Assembly (NCBI GenBank): GCA_964388035.1
Contig: CAYLZE010000019.1
Location: 1-60,529 of the forward strand
From: an uncultured archaeon
Lineage (GTDB): Archaea; Asgardarchaeota; Lokiarchaeia; Sigyniarchaeales; SOKP01
Length of the DNA: 60,529 bases
Reading direction: 5' to 3'
Shown: in pieces, positions 40,627 to 48,910 of the stretch
Numbering within the stretch: position 1 is the stretch's first letter
How the letters are laid out: every line of letters starts with the position of its first letter
Notes under the pieces: model-generated
Database searches by the model: none
Told to the model about the DNA's origin: nothing
What the model saw: only the letters and a program-made list of their open reading frames with translations
Position numbers and translations under genes: made by a program

Positions 40627-42933
40627 ATGGTTGTCTTCGAAACTTTTCTTGAATCCATTAAAACTGAAGATTTTTATGCGGATCAGATTAGCTACATTCA
40701 ACACCTTCCTGCTAAAAAAGCCAAATTTGGAACCCTAAATAAACTTCTTAAAACAAGACTTTTACGATGGTTGGAAGCAAATAACATCAAATTATGGGGG
40801 CATCAAGCTAGAGCTATCAATCACGTTTTAAATGGTAATAATTGCGTGATTTCCACCTCAACTGCGTCCGGAAAATCCCTTTGTTATAATCTTTGCGTCA
40901 TAAATTCTCTTTTACAAGATGAACAAATGACCGCACTCTTTGTATTTCCCACGAAAGCTTTAGCAAGAGATCAATATAATGCATTGAAACATCTTTTTGC
41001 TGATCTTCACATTAAATCCAATAGAGTGGGCATTTATGACGGTGATGTAGAACCAGATGAAAAAAAGAAAGTCCTAAGTGAAGCCAATATTATCATTACA
41101 AACCCTTATGGATTGCATTACTATTTGCCTTGGTTTAAGCAAAAATGGAATCGCATAGGAAAAAATCTGAAATTCATTATCTTGGATGAGATCCACGTAT
41201 ATCGGGGCATTTTCGGATCAAATTTTTCATTTTTGCTCAGGAGATTGAAAAGAATGTTGTACTCCTTTAATTCTCATCCTCAGTGGATTTTATCCAGTGC
41301 AACAATTTATAACCCTAAAAAATTTGCAGAAAAATTAACGGGAGAACCTTTTCTTGCCATTGAGGAGGATGATTCTCCCTCAGGTACCAAGGAGGTCATA
41401 TTATGGGATTTGCCCTATGATGAAATCTCTAAAAAGTATCGTTCCCCGCACCAAGAAACCAAAAATTTGTTCGTGATGTACTTACAACAAGACATTCAAA
41501 CGTTAACATTCACTTTATCAAGAAAAATGGCGGAATTACTCGCCATGTGGACAAAAAAAGCCTTACCTTACTTAGCGGATCGGATAATGAGTTATCGTGC
41601 AGGGATTAGCAAGACGACCAGGAGGAGGATCGAAACCCAATTTAAAAGCAGAGAGCTATTAGGGGTAAGTTCTACCAATGCTTTAGAATTAGGAATAGAC
41701 ATTGGATCATTGGATGCTACAATAACTTCTGGATTTCCGGGAACAATCTCTAGTTTTTATCAACAAATTGGAAGAGCGGGAAGGGGAGAAGAACTTTCAA
41801 TATCAGTGTTCATACCAATGGCTAATCCCTTGGATCTATTTTACATCCATAATCCGGATGTGCTATTTGGTCCCACAAAAGAAGAAGTTCTAATTACTTT
41901 AAAGAATAAGTATATCATTAAAAATCATTTGTGTTGTGCAGCAAAAGAAATTCCAATTAAGGAAGAAGATTATTTCATCTTCGGTATTGAAGAAAAAGAG
42001 CAATTTATTGGATACTTAGCCGAGTTAGAAGAAGAAGGTCTTTTAATCAAAAGGAGCGGGCGATACTTTTGGAAGGGAGATTTTTATCCAAATTCGCATT
42101 ATGGATTAAATAATTTATCCAATAAAAACTACAAGATTTTTCTAAAGAGAGGGGAAAGAGAGGATTTACTTACAATTGAAGATGAAAGCTTTGTTTTTAG
42201 AGATCTTCATCAAGGAGCCGTTTACTTGTATGAAGCAGAAACCTACATCGTTCAAGAGTTGGATATTGAGAATAAATTGGTTTACATCACGAAGGTAGAA
42301 GCGGACTTTTATACCCAATCGTTAAAACACACTCATATCACCACTCTCACGATTCTAAATTCAAAAATGGCAGGTCCTAAAAACAATATCGAGTGTTTTT
42401 TTGGAGACGTGAAAGTGGAACATGAATATTACTCTTACAAGATTATTGACTCCATGACCCAAGAAATTCTTGCTCGACGTCCCTTGGAAAACATTCCCTT
42501 GATCGAATTTGAAACACAGGCACACTGGTTCTTAATACCTTTTCAATTTCAAAAAGAATTAGAGGAAAAAGGATACGATCTGGGAGGTTCTATTCATGCC
42601 ATAGAGCATGCAATGATTGCAATTGCTCCTACCCTCGCACAAATCTCTCGGTGGGACTTGGGAGGGGTCTCTATTGACTTTGACCCCATAAAACAACAAC
42701 CCATAATCTATATTTACGATGCCTTTCGTGGAGGCATTGGAATTTCAGAATTGCTTTTCAATAACATGAACGAATTATTTAAAATGGCCTATCATCTCAT
42801 CAAGACGTGTAAATGTACCGCTATTAATGGCTGTCCGGGGTGTATTATTTCTCCTAAATGTGGCAATTTAAACGAACCTTTAGATAAACAAGGGGCCTTG
42901 TTTTTACTGGAAAAGATTCTTGCGCTTCAATAA
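40627..42933 (+). CDS. Hrq1/MrfA-like DEAH helicase with DUF1998 Zn domain
   Basis: TASGKS, PTKALARDQ, DEIH, NALELGIDIG, QQIGRAGR, CKC..GCPGC...KC. Confidence 0.93.
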   Translation: MVVFETFLESIKTEDFYADQISYIQHLPAKKAKFGTLNKLLKTRLLRWLEANNIKLWGHQARAINHVLNGNNCVISTSTASGKSLCYNLCVINSLLQDEQMTALFVFPTKALARDQYNALKHLFADLHIKSNRVGIYDGDVEPDEKKKVLSEANIIITNPYGLHYYLPWFKQKWNRIGKNLKFIILDEIHVYRGIFGSNFSFLLRRLKRMLYSFNSHPQWILSSATIYNPKKFAEKLTGEPFLAIEEDDSPSGTKEVILWDLPYDEISKKYRSPHQETKNLFVMYLQQDIQTLTFTLSRKMAELLAMWTKKALPYLADRIMSYRAGISKTTRRRIETQFKSRELLGVSSTNALELGIDIGSLDATITSGFPGTISSFYQQIGRAGRGEELSISVFIPMANPLDLFYIHNPDVLFGPTKEEVLITLKNKYIIKNHLCCAAKEIPIKEEDYFIFGIEEKEQFIGYLAELEEEGLLIKRSGRYFWKGDFYPNSHYGLNNLSNKNYKIFLKRGEREDLLTIEDESFVFRDLHQGAVYLYEAETYIVQELDIENKLVYITKVEADFYTQSLKHTHITTLTILNSKMAGPKNNIECFFGDVKVEHEYYSYKIIDSMTQEILARRPLENIPLIEFETQAHWFLIPFQFQKELEEKGYDLGGSIHAIEHAMIAIAPTLAQISRWDLGGVSIDFDPIKQQPIIYIYDAFRGGIGISELLFNNMNELFKMAYHLIKTCKCTAINGCPGCIISPKCGNLNEPLDKQGALFLLEKILALQ

Positions 42934-43242
42934 CCTACGCTTTATTTTTCTTTTGTTTTGAATAATTTGGGCCAAAATGAAAAAGAACATGGTAATCTGA
43001 TAAGATTGAAATAATGAAGATCAAAGTGTTTTAATTGAATTAATTTAAAAGAATGAATCACCTGTGATTTTCAAGATGAGAAGAACACTTTAAAAGGTTC
43101 TATTTTTTAGGATCGCGCCGTAATCGGATGAAAAGGAAGCTTAATCCGAATTATCCTAAATACCAAACTTTAATTGGTTAAATTTTACTATATTAAGATA
43201 ATAAATTTAATCCCCCAATAAGTTAATGGTTATGGATAAGTC

Positions 43243-43788
43243 ATGTTTAACGAGACGCACAAGATCGTGATTTTTGGTGAAGCCGGAACCGGAAAAACCA
43301 CGTTGATGCATAGGTACATCACAAATCGTTTTAGTGAAGATATTAAAATAACCATTGGTCTGGATTTTCATGTTAAGACTTTGTCAATCGAGGAGAAAAA
43401 AGTTAAGCTTCAAATCTGGGATTTTGGAGGAGAAGAAAGGTTTCGTTTCCTCTTTCCATCTTACATGTTAGGAGCAAGTGGAGGAATTTTCATGTATGAC
43501 ATTACCAATTATTCCACATTAGTTCATATTGATGATTGGCTTTCGCTGGTGAAAAATGTCTTGGAAGAAATGAACAAGCCGAGAATACCATTGTTGGTTA
43601 TTGGGGGAAAAGCCGATTTGTCAAGTGTTAGAGAAGTACCTTTCAAAGAGGGGGAACAAGTAGCCAAATCTAGGGAAGCTCAAGGATTCATGGAATGCTC
43701 TTCTAAGTCGGGAGATAACGTGGAAAGAGTTTTTGAAACATTAGCGCGATTAATTCTGGAGGAAAATTCTTCAGATCACGAGTTTTAG
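43243..43788 (+). CDS. Rab-like small GTPase
   Basis: GEAGTGKTT, TIGLDF, WDFGGEERF, GKAD, CSSK. Confidence 0.93.
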   Translation: MFNETHKIVIFGEAGTGKTTLMHRYITNRFSEDIKITIGLDFHVKTLSIEEKKVKLQIWDFGGEERFRFLFPSYMLGASGGIFMYDITNYSTLVHIDDWLSLVKNVLEEMNKPRIPLLVIGGKADLSSVREVPFKEGEQVAKSREAQGFMECSSKSGDNVERVFETLARLILEENSSDHEF

Positions 43789-43881
43789 TAATAAAATTCC
43801 CAAAGAATCTAAATAAGAGAAGTTAGAAACTTATGAATTATTAATAGAATTTTTATTTTTTCTCTTTCTAATTATTATAAT

Positions 43882-44391
43882 ATGAACCAGTTAAGTCTTA
43901 GATGGAAGGATTTTATATCTCCAACGTTGAGTATCTCGGAATATTTAGAAAAGTATAAAGATAAAACCAATATCATTAAAAATTACGAAGATTACATGCC
44001 TGAACAAAAAATAATCAATGAAATCGCATCTCTCTTGAAAAGTACCCATGAAAAGCTTAAAATCGTGGCTTTAGGGGCTGAATGGTGTCCGGACTGCTCG
44101 AAAAACGTTCCAGCCATGATAAAGATAATAGAAAGTTTGATGAAAGTTGCAGATGCGGAATTAAGAATCCTTTATGGGATAATGGTTAACGCTTTACATG
44201 GAAAGGGAGAAATTTTATGGCACAAAGGAAGATCTCCTCCCGAAGCAGTGGATCCCAAGTTTGAATTGAAAGCTATTCCTACCTTTTATATATTTGATTT
44301 CGAAGGGGAATTGCTAGGAACTATTGTTGAGGGACCTAAGATTTACCCCACGTTAGAAGAAGAGCTCCTTACCTTATTAAAAAAAAAGTAA
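43882..44391 (+). CDS. Thioredoxin-family protein
   Basis: WCPDC, IPTF. Confidence 0.88.
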   Translation: MNQLSLRWKDFISPTLSISEYLEKYKDKTNIIKNYEDYMPEQKIINEIASLLKSTHEKLKIVALGAEWCPDCSKNVPAMIKIIESLMKVADAELRILYGIMVNALHGKGEILWHKGRSPPEAVDPKFELKAIPTFYIFDFEGELLGTIVEGPKIYPTLEEELLTLLKKK

Positions 44392-44447
44392 GTTTTTTCT
44401 TGCCAATATAGATAAAATATTAAAGAACGTTTTTTCTCTTTCATTTT

Positions 44448-46508
44448 ATGACTGCACAAGATAAACTTAAATTAGTCCGGATAATCATATTTAAACACGG
44501 AATCTCTTATTTCATTAATCACGGGCAAATGAAAGGTTCCGGTACTTTCGAATTGGAATTTAAAATTGACGAAATGAATGATATTTTAAAAAGTATTTTT
44601 GCTCTCGATACCAGTGAAAAAGGATACATTTCTTTTATCTCCTATGACGCTGCAATAGAAAGCTCTCAGTTATTAAAATCCATCATGCTTGACATCCCTG
44701 ATACGGATTCCTTCTCGTCCTTGATAACGCAAATTAAAGGAGCTCGTATCAAATTAAGTATTGGAAGTTCACAAGAATCGCAAGGCACGATCATGGGTAT
44801 TGAGGAAATCGAAAAACTTGCGAAAGAAGAAAAAATTAGCGAAAAATTGTTAATAATTTTAAAAGAAGACGCCACTATCGCTAAAATTCCTTTCTCTGAG
44901 ATCACCTCTTTTAAAATTTTGAATGAAGATCTTAACAAAGACTTAAAATTTTTCTTGGATACTAGCATTGCCGGGAAAAAAAAAGATTCAAAAAAGATAA
45001 TCATCCACTGTGAATCGGGAGGAAATGAGGAGGAGGAAAGAAAGATTCTGGTTAGTTATTTAAGAGAAACTCCCATATGGAAAACCAGTTATAGAATAAT
45101 AATGAGTAAAAAACAAGCTCAAGAGGAAAAGTGTCTTTTGGCGGGATATGCTCTCGTAGAAAATACAACTAATGATGATTGGGAAGAAATAGAACTCACT
45201 TTGATTGCCGGCATGCCCGTTTCGTTCATATACGATTTTTATCGTCCCATATTCATTGAAAGACCAAAGATCCAACCCCCCAAGGTTCTCAGTGCAAGAC
45301 CTACCGAGATTGAAGAGGGAATGGATCTACAAGAGTTTAAAGAATATGAGAGGGAAGAAGCTCCAAAGAGGAAGATGGAAAAAAAAGTTTCTTTTGATAG
45401 AGTTGCAGCAACTGGGGCCATGTATGCAGCTAAGGCACCTCCTCCTCCTTCTCCCATGACAGTAGCAGACATGGATGATGAAGCCTTGTTTGGTAAAATG
45501 ACGGAACAAACCTCGACAAAAACCCGGGATCTCGGGGAATTATTTGAATATAATATCACCACCCCAGTATCCATTAAGCGGAAGCAGAGTGCTTTAGTAC
45601 CCATTCTCACGGAACAAATAAAAGCGAAACGAGTACTTCTATATAATAAAATCGAACATGATCAAAATCCCAATGCTTGCTTAGAAATAGTGAATAACAC
45701 GGAATTGACCATAGAACGAGGCCCCGTTACCATTATTTATGATGATAATTTAGCGGGAGAAGCTATAATTCCTTTTTTGAATAAGGAGGATACTCGACTT
45801 CTTAATTATGCCGTAGAGCAAGCAGTATTAATTACTTATGAAGAGAAAGCACAAGATCTAAAGATTCATAAAGTTTCTTTTAGGGGCTCCTATTGCTATG
45901 AATATTATTTTTCAAACACCTTCACCACGTATAAAATAAAAAACAAGACGGAAGAAAGTAAGGTACTATACTTGGATCATCCAAAAAGAGCGGGGTATCT
46001 CATTAAAGAAAGTCCCGTGGAACCGGAGGAAACCCAAAATTATTGGAGATTTAAACTTCAAGTAAATCCTAAGGAAGCAATTGCCTTTAAAATAAAAGAA
46101 CAAAAAGAGAATTATAGTAGCTATTATCTGTGGAATTGGGATCAAGATTATTTCAAGAATAAAATTGCGTTTTACATGGAACAAGAATTCATTAACAACC
46201 AAATAGAATCTAAATTGCGAAGTATTGGGGGATTAATCGGAAAAAAGAATGCATTGCAACAGGATAAAACAAAACTCGAGAATGAAATGTACCAAATGAA
46301 TGAGGAGCAAGAACGCTTGAGAAAAAATATTGCTGTTCTTGGGAATACGTCTCAAGAAGAGCAATTGCGGGAGAAATACGTGCTCAAACTTAGCGAACAA
46401 GAGAAAAGATATGAAGAAATTAAACGGGAGTTAAAAACATTGGAAAAAGAAATCAGCTCGTTAGAAAAACAAATTGAAATGGAAATGAACTTGTTAGATT
46501 ATAACTAA
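44448..46508 (+). CDS. DUF4139-like protein with C-terminal coiled coil
   Basis: IFKHGISYF, MNDILKS, PIWKTSYR, VENTT.DDW, GELFEY.I..PVSI...QSALVPI, Q.RLRKNI. Confidence 0.75.
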   Translation: MTAQDKLKLVRIIIFKHGISYFINHGQMKGSGTFELEFKIDEMNDILKSIFALDTSEKGYISFISYDAAIESSQLLKSIMLDIPDTDSFSSLITQIKGARIKLSIGSSQESQGTIMGIEEIEKLAKEEKISEKLLIILKEDATIAKIPFSEITSFKILNEDLNKDLKFFLDTSIAGKKKDSKKIIIHCESGGNEEEERKILVSYLRETPIWKTSYRIIMSKKQAQEEKCLLAGYALVENTTNDDWEEIELTLIAGMPVSFIYDFYRPIFIERPKIQPPKVLSARPTEIEEGMDLQEFKEYEREEAPKRKMEKKVSFDRVAATGAMYAAKAPPPPSPMTVADMDDEALFGKMTEQTSTKTRDLGELFEYNITTPVSIKRKQSALVPILTEQIKAKRVLLYNKIEHDQNPNACLEIVNNTELTIERGPVTIIYDDNLAGEAIIPFLNKEDTRLLNYAVEQAVLITYEEKAQDLKIHKVSFRGSYCYEYYFSNTFTTYKIKNKTEESKVLYLDHPKRAGYLIKESPVEPEETQNYWRFKLQVNPKEAIAFKIKEQKENYSSYYLWNWDQDYFKNKIAFYMEQEFINNQIESKLRSIGGLIGKKNALQQDKTKLENEMYQMNEEQERLRKNIAVLGNTSQEEQLREKYVLKLSEQEKRYEEIKRELKTLEKEISSLEKQIEMEMNLLDYN

Positions 46509-46623: not shown

Positions 46624-47478
46624 ATGTCAAAGACCCAAAAAATCAAAATAACACTCTCTTTATGGGACATAGGGGGGCAGAAACGATTTGACTTCTTTAA
46701 AACGGATTTCTTTAAAGGAACTGCTGCAGTGGGATTGGTTTTTGATTTAACGCGTCCCGATACCTTTGAAGTGATTAATACCTATTTTAAGGAAATTCGC
46801 CAACATGCCGGCAATATCCCCATTCTTTTAGTGGGTAATAAAAATGATCTTAAGAAAGAGATTGGAGAAAGCATTGAACGAAGTAGAATTATTAAAAAAG
46901 CTAATCGATTTAACTTGCTTGAATATGTAGAAACCTCTGCTTTAGAAGACATGAATGTGGAAGATTTATTTTATAAGCTTTCTATCGCCGCATTATTGGA
47001 TTTAAGGCCTCGATTGGGTGAGATTCAGCAATCAGAAGGCAACTCGTCTCATTTTAGATTTAAAATCATATTAGCAGGTCCTGCGGCAGTGGGGAAGTCT
47101 TCATTGATTCAACGCTTTACCCACTTGGATTTTAACCAAGATTATAAGCTCACGGTTGGCTTGGATCTCATGACGAGAGAGATCGAATTGGAAGAAAAAG
47201 ATTTACCTCCGGAAGCACTTAGTATAATTAAGCACGCGCTTTTAAAATACTCAAAAAAAACCAATCCTCCTCCTCTGAAAGCAAATCAAGAAGAAACAAA
47301 AATGGAAAAAGAAATTCCATTCAATATATCACTTGAAAGTCTAGAAACTATTAAAAACCATGATGAACGAGACCAACAAGAAAAATCTCGATTTGCATCA
47401 AAGAAAATATATTTGATCTTATTATTAATCCTGATTGCATTTCTAATTGTAGTGTCTCTGTTAATCTTCTTAAAGTAG
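46624..47478 (+). CDS. Circularly permuted Rab-like small GTPase (G3-G4-G5-G1-G2) with C-terminal TM anchor
   Basis: Motif order WDIGGQ, NKND, ETSAL, GPAAVGKSS, LTVGLD; terminal IYLILLLILIAFLIVVSLLIFLK. Confidence 0.88.
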   Translation: MSKTQKIKITLSLWDIGGQKRFDFFKTDFFKGTAAVGLVFDLTRPDTFEVINTYFKEIRQHAGNIPILLVGNKNDLKKEIGESIERSRIIKKANRFNLLEYVETSALEDMNVEDLFYKLSIAALLDLRPRLGEIQQSEGNSSHFRFKIILAGPAAVGKSSLIQRFTHLDFNQDYKLTVGLDLMTREIELEEKDLPPEALSIIKHALLKYSKKTNPPPLKANQEETKMEKEIPFNISLESLETIKNHDERDQQEKSRFASKKIYLILLLILIAFLIVVSLLIFLK

Positions 47479-47571: not shown

Positions 47572-48561
47572 TTAAATGAAAAAAAGCTGACTGGCGATCA
47601 TGTCTGCAGTATGTAAAAGAGTTCCTAATTTTGTCATTTTTAAAGGACGGTATTTTGACCAGGTTCCATGGTGAAATATGATAGCTTTACTAATCTCATC
47701 ATCGTGGAATAAATTAAAGGTGTCCAAAACTGCAAAACATTCGTCAACATGTGAATCTTTTCCAGTCAATTGAAATTTTAGCTTAATATTCCGGTTAATT
47801 TCAGGTAAATGAGCTCGATTGATTTTAACTTTACAATTTTGGATTTTTTTTTTAAACGAATAATTAGAAATCTTGCCAAAATCATGATAAATCGCAGAAA
47901 GAATTACTTGTTTGATAGAATAATTATTTTCCATTGATTGATAAAGATAACGAGCATAATTTGCGACTAATAGTACATGATCATGTAATCCTCCTTTATA
48001 TCCTCCATGATATCCGGCTATGGAAGCGGGCAATCTCTTAGATTCTTGGAGAATGAGATGCAATTTCCTTTTCGTCTCAGCATCCAAATGTATTAATTCA
48101 AATAAGGAATCAAAACTCATCACTTTGAACCTTATTTTCTCTTGAATTGATTTATTAATGAATATAGAGAAAGTATTTGGTTCGGAGACGTGCTTTGCTT
48201 TAGAGTTTTCAATTTCTTGAGAAATTTTTTGTAGTAAAAGAATTGTTTCCTCCTCATCGAGAGCACGTAGCACGTCAAATATCTTTACTATATGCTTGCA
48301 AAATTCATGATTTACTTGTCTACGGGAGAGGAAATCCGGACATTTATGGTGCACGATCTTGTAGAATCCTTCTTGTTTCAAGTCTATTTTTATTTCATAA
48401 GGAAGAATTTCTGAGCCCTGAATTAAAGCTTCAATGAATCCTTCTTTAAAATCATTTTGAATAATGTCAACCTTTTTGTTAGGAATAAGTCTTGCCCGCT
48501 TAATTGTTGTTAATTCTGCGAGGCTTTTAATTAAAGTTTCATATTCTAAATTTGATGGCAT
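47572..48561 (-). CDS. SWIM-type Zn finger fused to an HD-domain phosphohydrolase
   Basis: HKCPDF...FCKH; GGLHDH, YHDFGK, FHHG, HTADM. Confidence 0.8.
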   Translation of the reverse strand: MPSNLEYETLIKSLAELTTIKRARLIPNKKVDIIQNDFKEGFIEALIQGSEILPYEIKIDLKQEGFYKIVHHKCPDFLSRRQVNHEFCKHIVKIFDVLRALDEEETILLLQKISQEIENSKAKHVSEPNTFSIFINKSIQEKIRFKVMSFDSLFELIHLDAETKRKLHLILQESKRLPASIAGYHGGYKGGLHDHVLLVANYARYLYQSMENNYSIKQVILSAIYHDFGKISNYSFKKKIQNCKVKINRAHLPEINRNIKLKFQLTGKDSHVDECFAVLDTFNLFHDDEISKAIIFHHGTWSKYRPLKMTKLGTLLHTADMIASQLFFI

Positions 48562-48676: not shown

Positions 48677-48910
48677 ATGAGGGAAATAATCATGATCTCT
48701 GAATTGGAAAAAGAATACGATAAATTAATGGATAAAAGAGATAAGCTGGAAGAAAAATGTGATACGCTGCCTCAGTGCGCGGAAGATGATGGATGCGAAA
48801 CTTGTAAGGTTTATAAGCAAATTGCGGAACTCGATGAAAAAGTAGAGGCATTGGAAGCTAAGATCGAAAGTTTAACGGCAGGGGAAGAAGGAGAAGACGA
48901 AGAAGAGTAA
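48677..48910 (+). CDS. Small acidic coiled-coil protein with a four-Cys apex
   Basis: Heptad-like arms flanking C-x5-C-x5-CxxC. Confidence 0.7.
   Translation: MREIIMISELEKEYDKLMDKRDKLEEKCDTLPQCAEDDGCETCKVYKQIAELDEKVEALEAKIESLTAGEEGEDEEE

What the first reader, a model, noticed from the sequence alone, without database searches (positions are those of the whole stretch)
46624..47478. Circularly permuted, tail-anchored Rab-like GTPase (G3-G4-G5-G1-G2)
Seen: the protein starts at strand beta3 (KIKITLSLWDIGGQKRF, G3), runs through NKND (G4) and ETSAL (G5), then after a short linker has FKIILAGPAAVGKSS (G1) and DYKLTVGLDLMTREI (G2, beta2). A charged linker and a ~22-residue hydrophobic C-terminal helix follow. 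Each motif occurs once, and the break falls in the beta2-beta3 hairpin, where a permuted fold could close. The upstream intergenic DNA holds no frameshifted G1/G2. Established: YlqF/YRG GTPases permute as G4-G5-G1-G2-G3. The G3-first order is known from the rare eukaryotic cpRAS domain, which sits inside larger proteins. Inference: this is a stand-alone, membrane-tethered permuted Rab-like GTPase in an Asgard archaeon, anchored by a tail helix instead of prenylation, and possibly derived from a trimmed tandem GTPase.
Basis: partly seen in the sequence, partly recalled or inferred. Interest (0 to 1): 0.88.

Follow-up and report, generated by a model that had tools for sequence, protein, structure and literature searches.

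The report
Permuted membrane-anchored Rab-like GTPase
This Loki-type Asgard archaeal gene encodes a real, conserved Rab-like GTP switch whose two sequence halves are swapped and which carries its own membrane anchor; it is an apparently undescribed archaeal family with the same swap as the rare eukaryotic cpRAS domain.

Summary
ORF 46624..47478 (+, 284 aa) has each G motif once, in the order G3-G4-G5-G1-G2, followed by a flexible linker and a 22-residue C-terminal hydrophobic helix. The cut maps exactly to the beta2/beta3 hairpin of Rab11.

It is not a truncation or a misassembly. All 120 best homologues from independent assemblies start at beta3 and keep the same order. The AlphaFold model (pLDDT 81) aligns with Rab/Rho structures over beta3-alpha5. 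It also aligns collinearly with YlqF-type permuted GTPases over beta4-alpha5-beta1-alpha1-beta2, so a closed G domain forms in the model.

New here:
- The family was found only in one order (67 of 400 Asgard genomes sampled), usually as a single copy.
- Its sister group is a canonical Lokiarchaeial Rab-like clade (support 96/82). I infer an origin separate from cpRAS; no joint tree with cpRAS could be built.
- Orthologues carry either a tail-anchor or a polybasic tail, and long forms with an unknown C-terminal domain also exist.
- The gene sits in a conserved block: Rab-like GTPase, thioredoxin-like protein, DUF4139 protein, permuted GTPase, HD hydrolase.

This scan found the same family earlier in other genomes. 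No paper I could search describes it. GTP binding, membrane insertion and partners are untested.

The parts
46624..47478 (+). Whole ORF of the circularly permuted Rab-like GTPase (284 aa, stop codon included)
46666..46680 (+). G3 motif DIGGQ (residues 15-19), at the end of beta3. Q19 corresponds to the catalytic Gln.
   Evidence: D15 and G18 are invariant and Q19 nearly invariant in A1 and A2.
46837..46848 (+). G4 motif NKND (residues 72-75)
   Evidence: N72 and K73 are invariant.
46933..46941 (+). G5 motif TSA (residues 104-106)
46999..47052 (+). Connector from alpha5 to beta1 (residues 126-143), with the family-specific, nearly invariant D-x3-R-L-G-E. The model gives it a short strand at 132-136.
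47077..47100 (+). G1 P-loop GPAAVGKS (residues 152-159)
47143..47193 (+). Switch I / G2 (YKLTVGLD, T177 invariant) and beta2 (184-190), the last element of the G domain
47209..47262 (+). Conserved helix after beta2 (residues 196-213; P195, E197 and I202 conserved)
   Evidence: (pLDDT 86-90)
47263..47406 (+). Poorly conserved charged linker (residues 214-261), low pLDDT
47407..47472 (+). C-terminal hydrophobic helix I262-L283 (tail-anchor), preceded by KK
43243..43788 (+). Context: canonical Rab-like GTPase (181 aa) of the conserved block
43882..44391 (+). Context: Thioredoxin_9-like protein
44448..46508 (+). Context: 686-aa DUF4139-family protein with a C-terminal coiled coil, directly upstream
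47572..48561 (-). Context: HD-domain protein with an H-x-C...C-x-H N-terminal domain, convergent with the GTPase gene. Its presence across genomes tracks the permuted GTPase.
48677..48910 (+). Context: conserved 70-77-aa acidic coiled-coil protein with four Cys, which closes the block

Best explanation
The gene encodes a functional small GTPase of the Rab-like type. Its chain starts at strand beta3 and ends at strand beta2 (G3-G4-G5-G1-G2) and still folds into one closed G domain. A short conserved connector (D-x3-RLGE) joins helix alpha5 to strand beta1.

The G domain lies in the cytoplasm. It is followed by a conserved helix, a flexible linker of about 50 residues and a terminal transmembrane helix, so the switch is permanently tethered to the membrane. 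Rabs instead attach reversibly through prenyl groups.

I infer that it acts as a membrane-resident GTP/GDP switch that recruits effectors through its Rab-like switch and interswitch surface. With a permanent anchor, it would have to be controlled by nucleotide exchange and hydrolysis alone, not by extraction from the membrane.

The family arose inside one order of Loki-type Asgard archaea from a canonical Rab-like lineage. The route was probably duplication, fusion and trimming of the ends.

Shown here: the motif order, conservation, a closed fold in the model, the phylogenetic position, the tail types and the synteny. Inferred: GTP binding and hydrolysis, topology, effector recruitment and the route of origin.
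For: Permutation:
- Pfam Ras matches in two swapped stretches.
- The Rab11B alignment puts the cut between Rab11 residues 55 and 56.

Conservation:
- 438 homologues were found. The 120 best all have G3 near residue 10, G4 near 67, G5 near 99 and G1 near 143, and all start at M-x-K-[IV]-T-L-S-L-W-D.
- Residues needed for nucleotide binding are invariant or nearly so in both alignments, including the long forms in A2: D15, G18, Q19, N72, K73, S105, G152, G157, K158, T177.

Fold:
- The AF2 model has pLDDT 81 and pTM 0.70 and contains all six core strands.
- Model residues 5-125 align to Rho/Rab chains at Z 11.5-13.1, rmsd 1.6-2.3.
- Model residues 18-189 align collinearly to YRG-type permuted GTPases: YlqF 1puj (Z 11.3, 140 aa), YqeH 3h2y (Z 11.2, 142 aa), YjeQ 2yv5 (Z 11.0) and a pre-60S chain, 8pv1_Cd (Z 11.8, 146 aa). 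This places beta1, the P-loop, alpha1 and beta2 correctly relative to beta4-alpha5.

Membrane tether:
- 41 of 120 homologues have a TM helix that ends 0-6 residues from the C-terminus.
- The 8 residues before it hold on average 4.2 K/R and 0.1 D/E.
- The other 78 have tails with 30% K+R.

Origin:
- In the ML tree of un-permuted G domains, the permuted clade (21 short and 3 long forms) has support 100/99.
- It is sister, at 96/82, to a canonical clade (99/98). That clade includes a roughly 175-aa GTPase that is 94-99% conserved in most genomes of the family.

Real locus:
- The gene is single-copy in a conserved block in 37 loci examined.
Against: - There are no biochemical, expression or localisation data.
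- The coordinates of the model could not be inspected. Closure rests on alignment ranges and confidence values, and an assembly of the domain in trans cannot be excluded.
- The P-loop has Ala-Ala where Ras has G12-G13, so the hydrolysis rate is unpredictable.
- The anchor is not a constant feature of the family, since 78 of 120 homologues lack a TM helix.
- Many close relatives lack the gene altogether (for example genus g12: 1 of 42), so it is dispensable.
- The tree holds only paralogues from this genome and a few relatives. It has no eukaryotic Rab or cpRAS sequences.
Confidence: 0.8

Rival explanations
1. The G domain is completed in trans. The beta1-alpha1-beta2 segment of one chain packs onto the beta3-alpha5 body of another, giving domain-swapped dimers or membrane-bound oligomers instead of a closed monomer.
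For: The permutation breaks the beta2/beta3 hairpin, and the alpha5-beta1 connector is only about 16 residues long. Closure is seen only in a monomer prediction.
Against: - AF2 closes the domain within one chain with high confidence in the beta1 (pLDDT 88-91) and beta2 (83) blocks.
- The alignment to YRG GTPases over model residues 18-189 is collinear.
- The connector is nearly invariant, as expected if it has a fixed intramolecular path.
Confidence: 0.08
2. It is a nucleotide-binding but essentially non-cycling pseudo-switch: a constitutive membrane scaffold that no longer hydrolyses GTP at a useful rate.
For: The P-loop reads G-x-A-A-V-G-K-S, with Ala at both positions equivalent to Ras G12 and G13. 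One long form (L085) has lost the Gln of G3 (DPPGE). The anchor is permanent, so there is no membrane cycle.
Against: Q19 is nearly invariant and T177 invariant across short and long forms. Canonical Rabs also lack Gly at the G12 position and still cycle with the help of GAPs (established knowledge).
Confidence: 0.1
3. It is an artefact: a misassembly, or the remnant of a tandem double GTPase truncated at both ends in this genome only.
For: A tandem of two GTPases read across its junction gives the same motif order. Adjacent canonical pairs do exist (L087), and tandem gene models score well with the family profile.
Against: - The same order and the same start appear in 120 of 120 homologues from independent assemblies and in 67 genomes.
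- About 17 clusters at 50% identity start at beta3.
- The tandem hits checked by name were eukaryotic gene models.
- The upstream spacer is 115 nt with no P-loop in any frame.
Confidence: 0.01

Closest known systems
cpRAS domain of eukaryotic CPRas proteins (Elias & Novotny 2008, Biol Direct 3:21, PMC2430557)
   Same: Same circular permutation: G3-G4-G5-G1-G2, cut in the beta2/beta3 turn, with alpha5 joined directly to beta1. Both derive from the Ras superfamily.
   Different: - cpRAS belongs to the RAS family proper (TIE G2 motif), is eukaryote-specific and monophyletic, and always sits inside proteins of about 840-3900 residues with VWA or alpha-2-macroglobulin-like domains.
- The protein here is archaeal and stand-alone, with a Rab-like G2 (YKLTVGLD). 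It carries a tail-anchor or a polybasic tail and is sister to canonical Lokiarchaeial Rab-like genes.
- No joint tree was possible, because no cpRAS sequence was available by reference.
Asgard and eukaryotic Rab-like small GTPases (for example Rab11, Rab23, Sec4 and the Thorarchaeota Rab 7ezb)
   Same: These are the best sequence and structure matches: Rab11B 3.1e-27, Thorarchaeota Rab 3.6e-23, Z 11-13. All five G motifs are present, with Rab-like switch I and beta3 residues. The protein is 46% identical to a conserved canonical paralogue once un-permuted.
   Different: The order of the chain is permuted. There is no C-terminal Cys motif for prenylation. Membrane attachment is by a TM helix that follows beta2, not by a lipid after alpha5.
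YRG / YlqF-YawG family of circularly permuted GTPases (YlqF/RbgA, YqeH, YjeQ/RsgA)
   Same: These are natural circularly permuted P-loop GTPases. The model aligns with them collinearly over beta4-alpha5-beta1-alpha1-beta2 (Z 9-11.8, 120-146 residues).
   Different: They have a different cut point (G4-G5-G1-G2-G3, between beta3 and alpha2) and belong to the TRAFAC ribosome-assembly class. Identity is only 13-20%. They are ancient and universal, and they are not membrane proteins.
Membrane-spanning small GTPases such as tail-anchored Miro and SR-beta (from my own knowledge, not tested here)
   Same: A Ras-superfamily G domain held on a membrane by its own TM helix instead of a lipid.
   Different: Those have the canonical motif order and are eukaryotic. 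No homology beyond the G domain was examined here.

Membership tests
Ras superfamily small GTPase (Pfam PF00071) | All five G motifs with the residues that bind nucleotide and Mg | tested here: met
   G1-G5 are each present once. Pfam Ras E 1.3e-35. Key residues are invariant in the family.
Ras superfamily small GTPase (Pfam PF00071) | Canonical chain order G1-G2-G3-G4-G5 | tested here: not met
   The order is G3-G4-G5-G1-G2. There are two swapped stretches against Pfam and PDB sequences.
Ras superfamily small GTPase (Pfam PF00071) | Six-stranded alpha/beta G-domain fold | tested here: met
   This holds for the predicted model only: pLDDT 81, Z 11-13 to Rho/Rab over residues 5-125, and Z 9-11.8 to YRG GTPases over 18-189.
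Ras superfamily small GTPase (Pfam PF00071) | GTP binding and hydrolysis | not testable with these tools
   This needs purified protein.
Rab family in the strict sense | C-terminal Cys motif for geranylgeranylation | tested here: not met
   The protein ends ...VVSLLIFLK and has no Cys in its last 90 residues.
Rab family in the strict sense | RabF motifs (IGVDF, KLQIW, RFrsiT, YYRGA, LVYDIT; recalled from Pereira-Leal & Seabra 2000) | tested here: inconclusive
   By eye there are partial matches: VGLDL, TLSLW, RFDFFK, FFKGT, LVFDLT. No profile test or tree with eukaryotic Rabs was run.
cpRAS | G3-G4-G5-G1-G2 order with the cut in the beta2/beta3 turn | tested here: met
   definition
cpRAS | Member of the RAS family proper (TIE-type G2) and of the monophyletic eukaryotic cpRAS clade | tested here: not met
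   G2 is YKLTVGLD. The best PDB matches are Rabs. The sister group is a canonical Lokiarchaeial Rab-like clade. A direct tree with cpRAS sequences could not be built.
cpRAS | Embedded in a large protein with VWA or alpha-2-macroglobulin-like regions | tested here: not met
   The protein is 284 aa, and Pfam finds GTPase families only. The long forms carry an unrelated C-terminal domain with no Pfam match.
YRG / YlqF permuted GTPases | G4-G5-G1-G2-G3 order | tested here: not met
   G3 comes first, not last. The NCBIfam YqeH, Der and RsgA models score far below their cut-offs.
Tail-anchored membrane protein | A single TM helix within about 30 residues of the C-terminus and no N-terminal signal | tested here: met
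   The hydrophobic stretch is 262-283 of 284 (Kyte-Doolittle mean 3.57) with K/R before it. The N-terminus is beta3 of the G domain.
Tail-anchored membrane protein | Post-translational insertion, with the G domain cytoplasmic | not testable with these tools
   The topology is inferred from the positive charges before the helix.

The most novel reading that the evidence does not exclude
The permutation is adaptive, not neutral. Moving the chain ends to the interswitch hairpin makes the membrane tether leave directly from beta2, next to switch I. The nucleotide state would then be passed mechanically to the conserved post-beta2 helix and the tether. This would be a lipid-free counterpart of the Arf interswitch toggle. 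In this reading the protein works with the linked HD hydrolase and/or the DUF4139 coiled-coil protein as a Loki-specific membrane-recruitment module.
Probability: 0.15. Interest if true: 0.8.

Novelty: new variant of a known kind. Interest (0 to 1): 0.6.

Why it matters
A G3-first permutation of the Ras fold was once argued to be impossible. So far it has been documented only for the eukaryotic cpRAS domain, whose function is unknown.

This archaeal family is a second case and, by my inference, an independent one. It is small, stand-alone and present in many genomes, which makes it much easier to express and solve than cpRAS. It could show how a small GTPase tolerates an open interswitch hairpin.

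It also widens the known range of membrane attachment in Asgard small GTPases. These proteins lack prenylation, and here orthologues carry either a tail-anchor or a polybasic tail. That bears on how membrane-associated GTPase switches worked in the archaeal relatives of eukaryotes.

The restricted distribution and the frequent absence of the gene argue that it is a lineage-specific invention, not an ancestor of eukaryotic machinery.

Tried and rejected
- Complex prediction of the G domain (residues 1-220) with the neighbouring HD protein gave no answer (score 0.01, controls not run). It is neither support nor evidence against binding.
- The AF2 model of the 686-aa DUF4139 neighbour was poor (pLDDT 55.7, pTM 0.25), so I ran no fold search with it. 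Its sequence has no PDB relative.
- I looked for an un-permuted ancestor at the syntenic site in 16 related loci that lack the gene. None was there; the block simply runs from DUF4139 to the small acidic protein.
- The tandem, three-stretch hits of the representative search that I checked by name were eukaryotic gene models from a plant, rotifers and a fungus. They are not relatives.
- Two junction-spanning matches (G188, G192) turned out to be multidomain proteins with a degenerate G domain followed by a canonical one. They are not permuted.
- A 99-aa 'half Rab' in this genome (C38) is only cut by the end of its contig.
- The Atlas shape search added nothing beyond canonical GTPases.
- Literature searches found only the cpRAS paper. 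I searched for permuted GTPases in Asgard archaea, for the motif order, and inside two Asgard GTPase surveys.
- No joint tree with cpRAS was built, because no cpRAS sequence could be obtained by reference.

Full report
**1. The observation**

The + strand carries an ORF at 46624..47478 that encodes 284 residues. Each GTPase motif occurs once:
- G3 DIGGQ at residues 15-19
- G4 NKND at 72-75
- G5 TSA at 104-106
- G1 GPAAVGKS at 152-159
- the G2 threonine T177, within YKLTVGLD

Pfam Ras matches at E 1.3e-35, but in two stretches: protein 4-119 against profile 43-156, and a second stretch. The alignment to Rab11B (4ojk) places the cut. Query 143-194 pairs with Rab11 4-55, which covers beta1, the P-loop, alpha1, switch I and beta2. 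Query 10-119 pairs with Rab11 56-163, which covers beta3 to alpha5. The cut therefore falls exactly in the beta2/beta3 turn.

The spacer upstream of the start codon is 115 nt. It has no P-loop in any frame. Residues 262-283 are a 22-residue hydrophobic stretch, one residue from the C-terminus.

**2. Not an artefact**

A search of the large protein collection gave 438 relatives. Every one of the 120 best, from many independent assemblies, starts at M-x-K-[IV]-T-L-S-L-W-D. All have G3, G4, G5 and G1 near residues 10, 67, 99 and 143.

An exhaustive profile search found about 17 clusters at 50% identity in which one collinear stretch begins at residue 1. The high-scoring proteins with three or more stretches are tandem GTPases. 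Those I could name were eukaryotic gene models.

In the window's own genome (5.47 Mb, 96.7% complete) there are about 67 Ras-family loci. Only this one is permuted.

**3. The fold**

The AlphaFold2 model, built on 83 homologues, has pLDDT 81 and pTM 0.70. Its strands lie at 6-15, 33-41, 67-72, 100-103, 142-151 and 184-190. Confidence is low only in the two switch regions and in the linker before the terminal helix.

Sequence-order aligners can align only part of a permuted domain to a canonical one. Rab and Rho chains align to model residues 5-125 at Z 11.5-13.1 and rmsd 1.6-2.3.

The second half was checked against GTPases permuted at a different point, which are collinear with this protein from beta4 to beta2:
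- YlqF 1puj: Z 11.3, 140 residues, model 19-187
- YqeH 3h2y: Z 11.2, 142 residues
- YjeQ 2yv5: Z 11.0
- a pre-60S chain, 8pv1_Cd: Z 11.8, 146 residues, model 18-188

Together the two sets show that the model is a closed G domain. This describes a prediction, not a structure.

**4. Conserved features**

Invariant or nearly invariant across short and long forms are W14, D15, G18, Q19, N72, K73, D75, T104, S105, G152, G157, K158 and T177.

The alpha5-beta1 connector is specific to this family and nearly invariant (D126, R130, L131, G132, E133). A helix after beta2 is also conserved (P195, E197, I202). The P-loop has Ala-Ala where Ras has G12-G13.

**5. Tails**

Among the 120 homologues, 41 end in a TM helix that stops 0-6 residues from the C-terminus. 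The 8 residues before it hold on average 4.2 K/R. The other 78 have a tail with 30% K+R and no TM helix.

Both types occupy the same genomic position, and they are interleaved in the tree. They are therefore orthologues with interchangeable means of reaching a membrane. That the G domain is cytoplasmic is inferred from the charge distribution.

**6. Long forms**

Some genomes encode proteins of 435-755 residues with four parts:
- the permuted domain at the N-terminus
- a Pro-rich and acidic low-complexity linker
- a conserved domain of about 130 residues with no Pfam match
- one or two TM helices

**7. Distribution**

With the G domain as query, collinear matches at E <= 1e-30 occur in 67 of 400 sampled genomes of the phylum, all within one order. 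The window's own family has 63 of 134 and a second family has 3 of 14. The other families have none.

A probe that spans only the G5-alpha5-connector-beta1-P-loop junction gave the same set. Elsewhere it matched only the P-loop half.

Within the family the gene is patchy: genus g11 has 50 of 54, g2 has 5 of 5, g10 has 4 of 10, g12 has 1 of 42, and g5 and g6 have none. NCBI names on some hits (Odin-, Thor-, Hermod-, Hodarchaeota) come from submitters. They sit on loci with the same synteny and over 60% identity, so I do not read them as evidence of a wide spread. Absence elsewhere means 'not found with these queries'.

**8. Origin**

I re-ordered the permuted sequences to canonical order in a script. 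I then aligned them with 31 canonical G domains of this genome and a few relatives.

In the careful ML tree, 21 short forms plus 3 long forms make one clade (100/99). Its sister, at 96/82, is a canonical clade (99/98). That clade holds two paralogues of this genome, an adjacent gene pair from another genome (L087, 21 nt apart) and a roughly 175-aa GTPase. That 175-aa GTPase gives matches in 130 of 135 family genomes, at 94-99% identity in most of them. The fourth long form (L085) sits on a long branch outside the clade, but an AU test does not reject a single permuted clade (p 0.58).

The un-permuted protein is 46% identical to the conserved canonical GTPase. cpRAS, in contrast, is reported as a monophyletic, eukaryote-specific offshoot of the RAS family proper. 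I therefore infer a separate origin. This was not tested in one joint tree. The duplication-fusion-trimming route remains a hypothesis.

**9. Neighbourhood**

In 37 loci with the gene, the order is as follows (square brackets mark genes present in only some loci):
- [MrfA/Hrq1-like helicase]
- canonical Rab-like GTPase
- Thioredoxin_9 protein
- DUF4139 protein of about 683 aa with a coiled-coil end
- [methyltransferase]
- permuted GTPase
- [HD protein on the opposite strand]
- acidic 4-Cys protein of about 70 aa

In 16 related loci without the permuted gene, the block is otherwise largely intact. Neither a permuted GTPase nor an HD gene lies between the DUF4139 gene and the small acidic protein gene.

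The full-length HD protein occurs in 33 of 135 family genomes. Of these, 32 have the permuted GTPase, usually right next to it. These genomes are related, so the counts overstate independence. The linkage is a lead for partners, not evidence of binding.

**10. Literature and earlier notes**

Full-text searches found only the 2008 cpRAS paper. The searches covered permuted GTPases in Asgard archaea and the motif order. Two Asgard GTPase surveys do not mention permutation or TM anchors.

This scan noted and followed up the same family in several other genomes, with the same verdict. This report adds the structural check against YRG GTPases, the restricted distribution, the canonical sister clade, the long forms and the conserved neighbourhood.

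**11. Verdict**

This is a real, conserved, apparently undescribed archaeal family with the cpRAS-type permutation. It is a new variant of a known kind. Its function as a membrane-tethered switch is well grounded in sequence but untested.

Noticed in passing
window 40627..46508 and 48677..48910: A conserved gene block runs helicase, canonical Rab-like GTPase, Thioredoxin_9 protein, DUF4139 protein of about 683 aa, then an acidic 4-Cys protein of about 70 aa. The DUF4139 protein is 60-72% identical in 103 of 135 genomes of the family, with or without the permuted GTPase. Its function is unknown.
   Followed up: partly
window 47572..48561 (-): An HD-domain protein with a conserved N-terminal domain carrying invariant H72, C74, C88 and H90 (zinc-site-like), plus intact HD residues. 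Its full-length form occurs almost only in genomes that have the permuted GTPase (32 of 33).
   Followed up: partly
L085:2061-3527, L088:64-2187, L089:1412-2731; P0122: Long-form permuted GTPases (439-724 aa). They have a Pro-rich linker, a conserved C-terminal domain of about 130 residues with no Pfam match (motif ...EP.FPGC[IV]CVP...ITPL...), and one or two TM helices.
   Followed up: partly
G000:C38:42543-42841 (L090); L093:1273-1797: A canonical Rab-like GTPase of about 175 aa gives matches in 130 of 135 family genomes, at 94-99% identity (first 99 residues) in most of them. It belongs to the clade that is sister to the permuted family. In this assembly it is cut by the end of a contig.
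   Followed up: partly
L087:1327-2394: Two adjacent canonical Rab-like genes (177 and 170 aa, 21 nt apart) from the sister clade. This is the kind of arrangement from which a permuted gene could arise by fusion and trimming.
   Followed up: no
P0206: A 243-aa sequence from a foraminiferan transcriptome (Bolivina argentea, EukProt). It starts at beta3 of a Rab7-like domain and has its P-loop at residue 145. It is either a eukaryotic permuted Rab or a transcript artefact.
   Followed up: no
P0146 and P0135: Two different TM-anchored permuted GTPases (284 and 316 aa) with consecutive accession numbers in the same assemblies. They are probably adjacent paralogues.
   Followed up: no
whole genome G000: About 67 loci match the Ras family profile in this 5.47-Mb genome, several of them inside multidomain proteins of 300-680 aa.
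   Followed up: no
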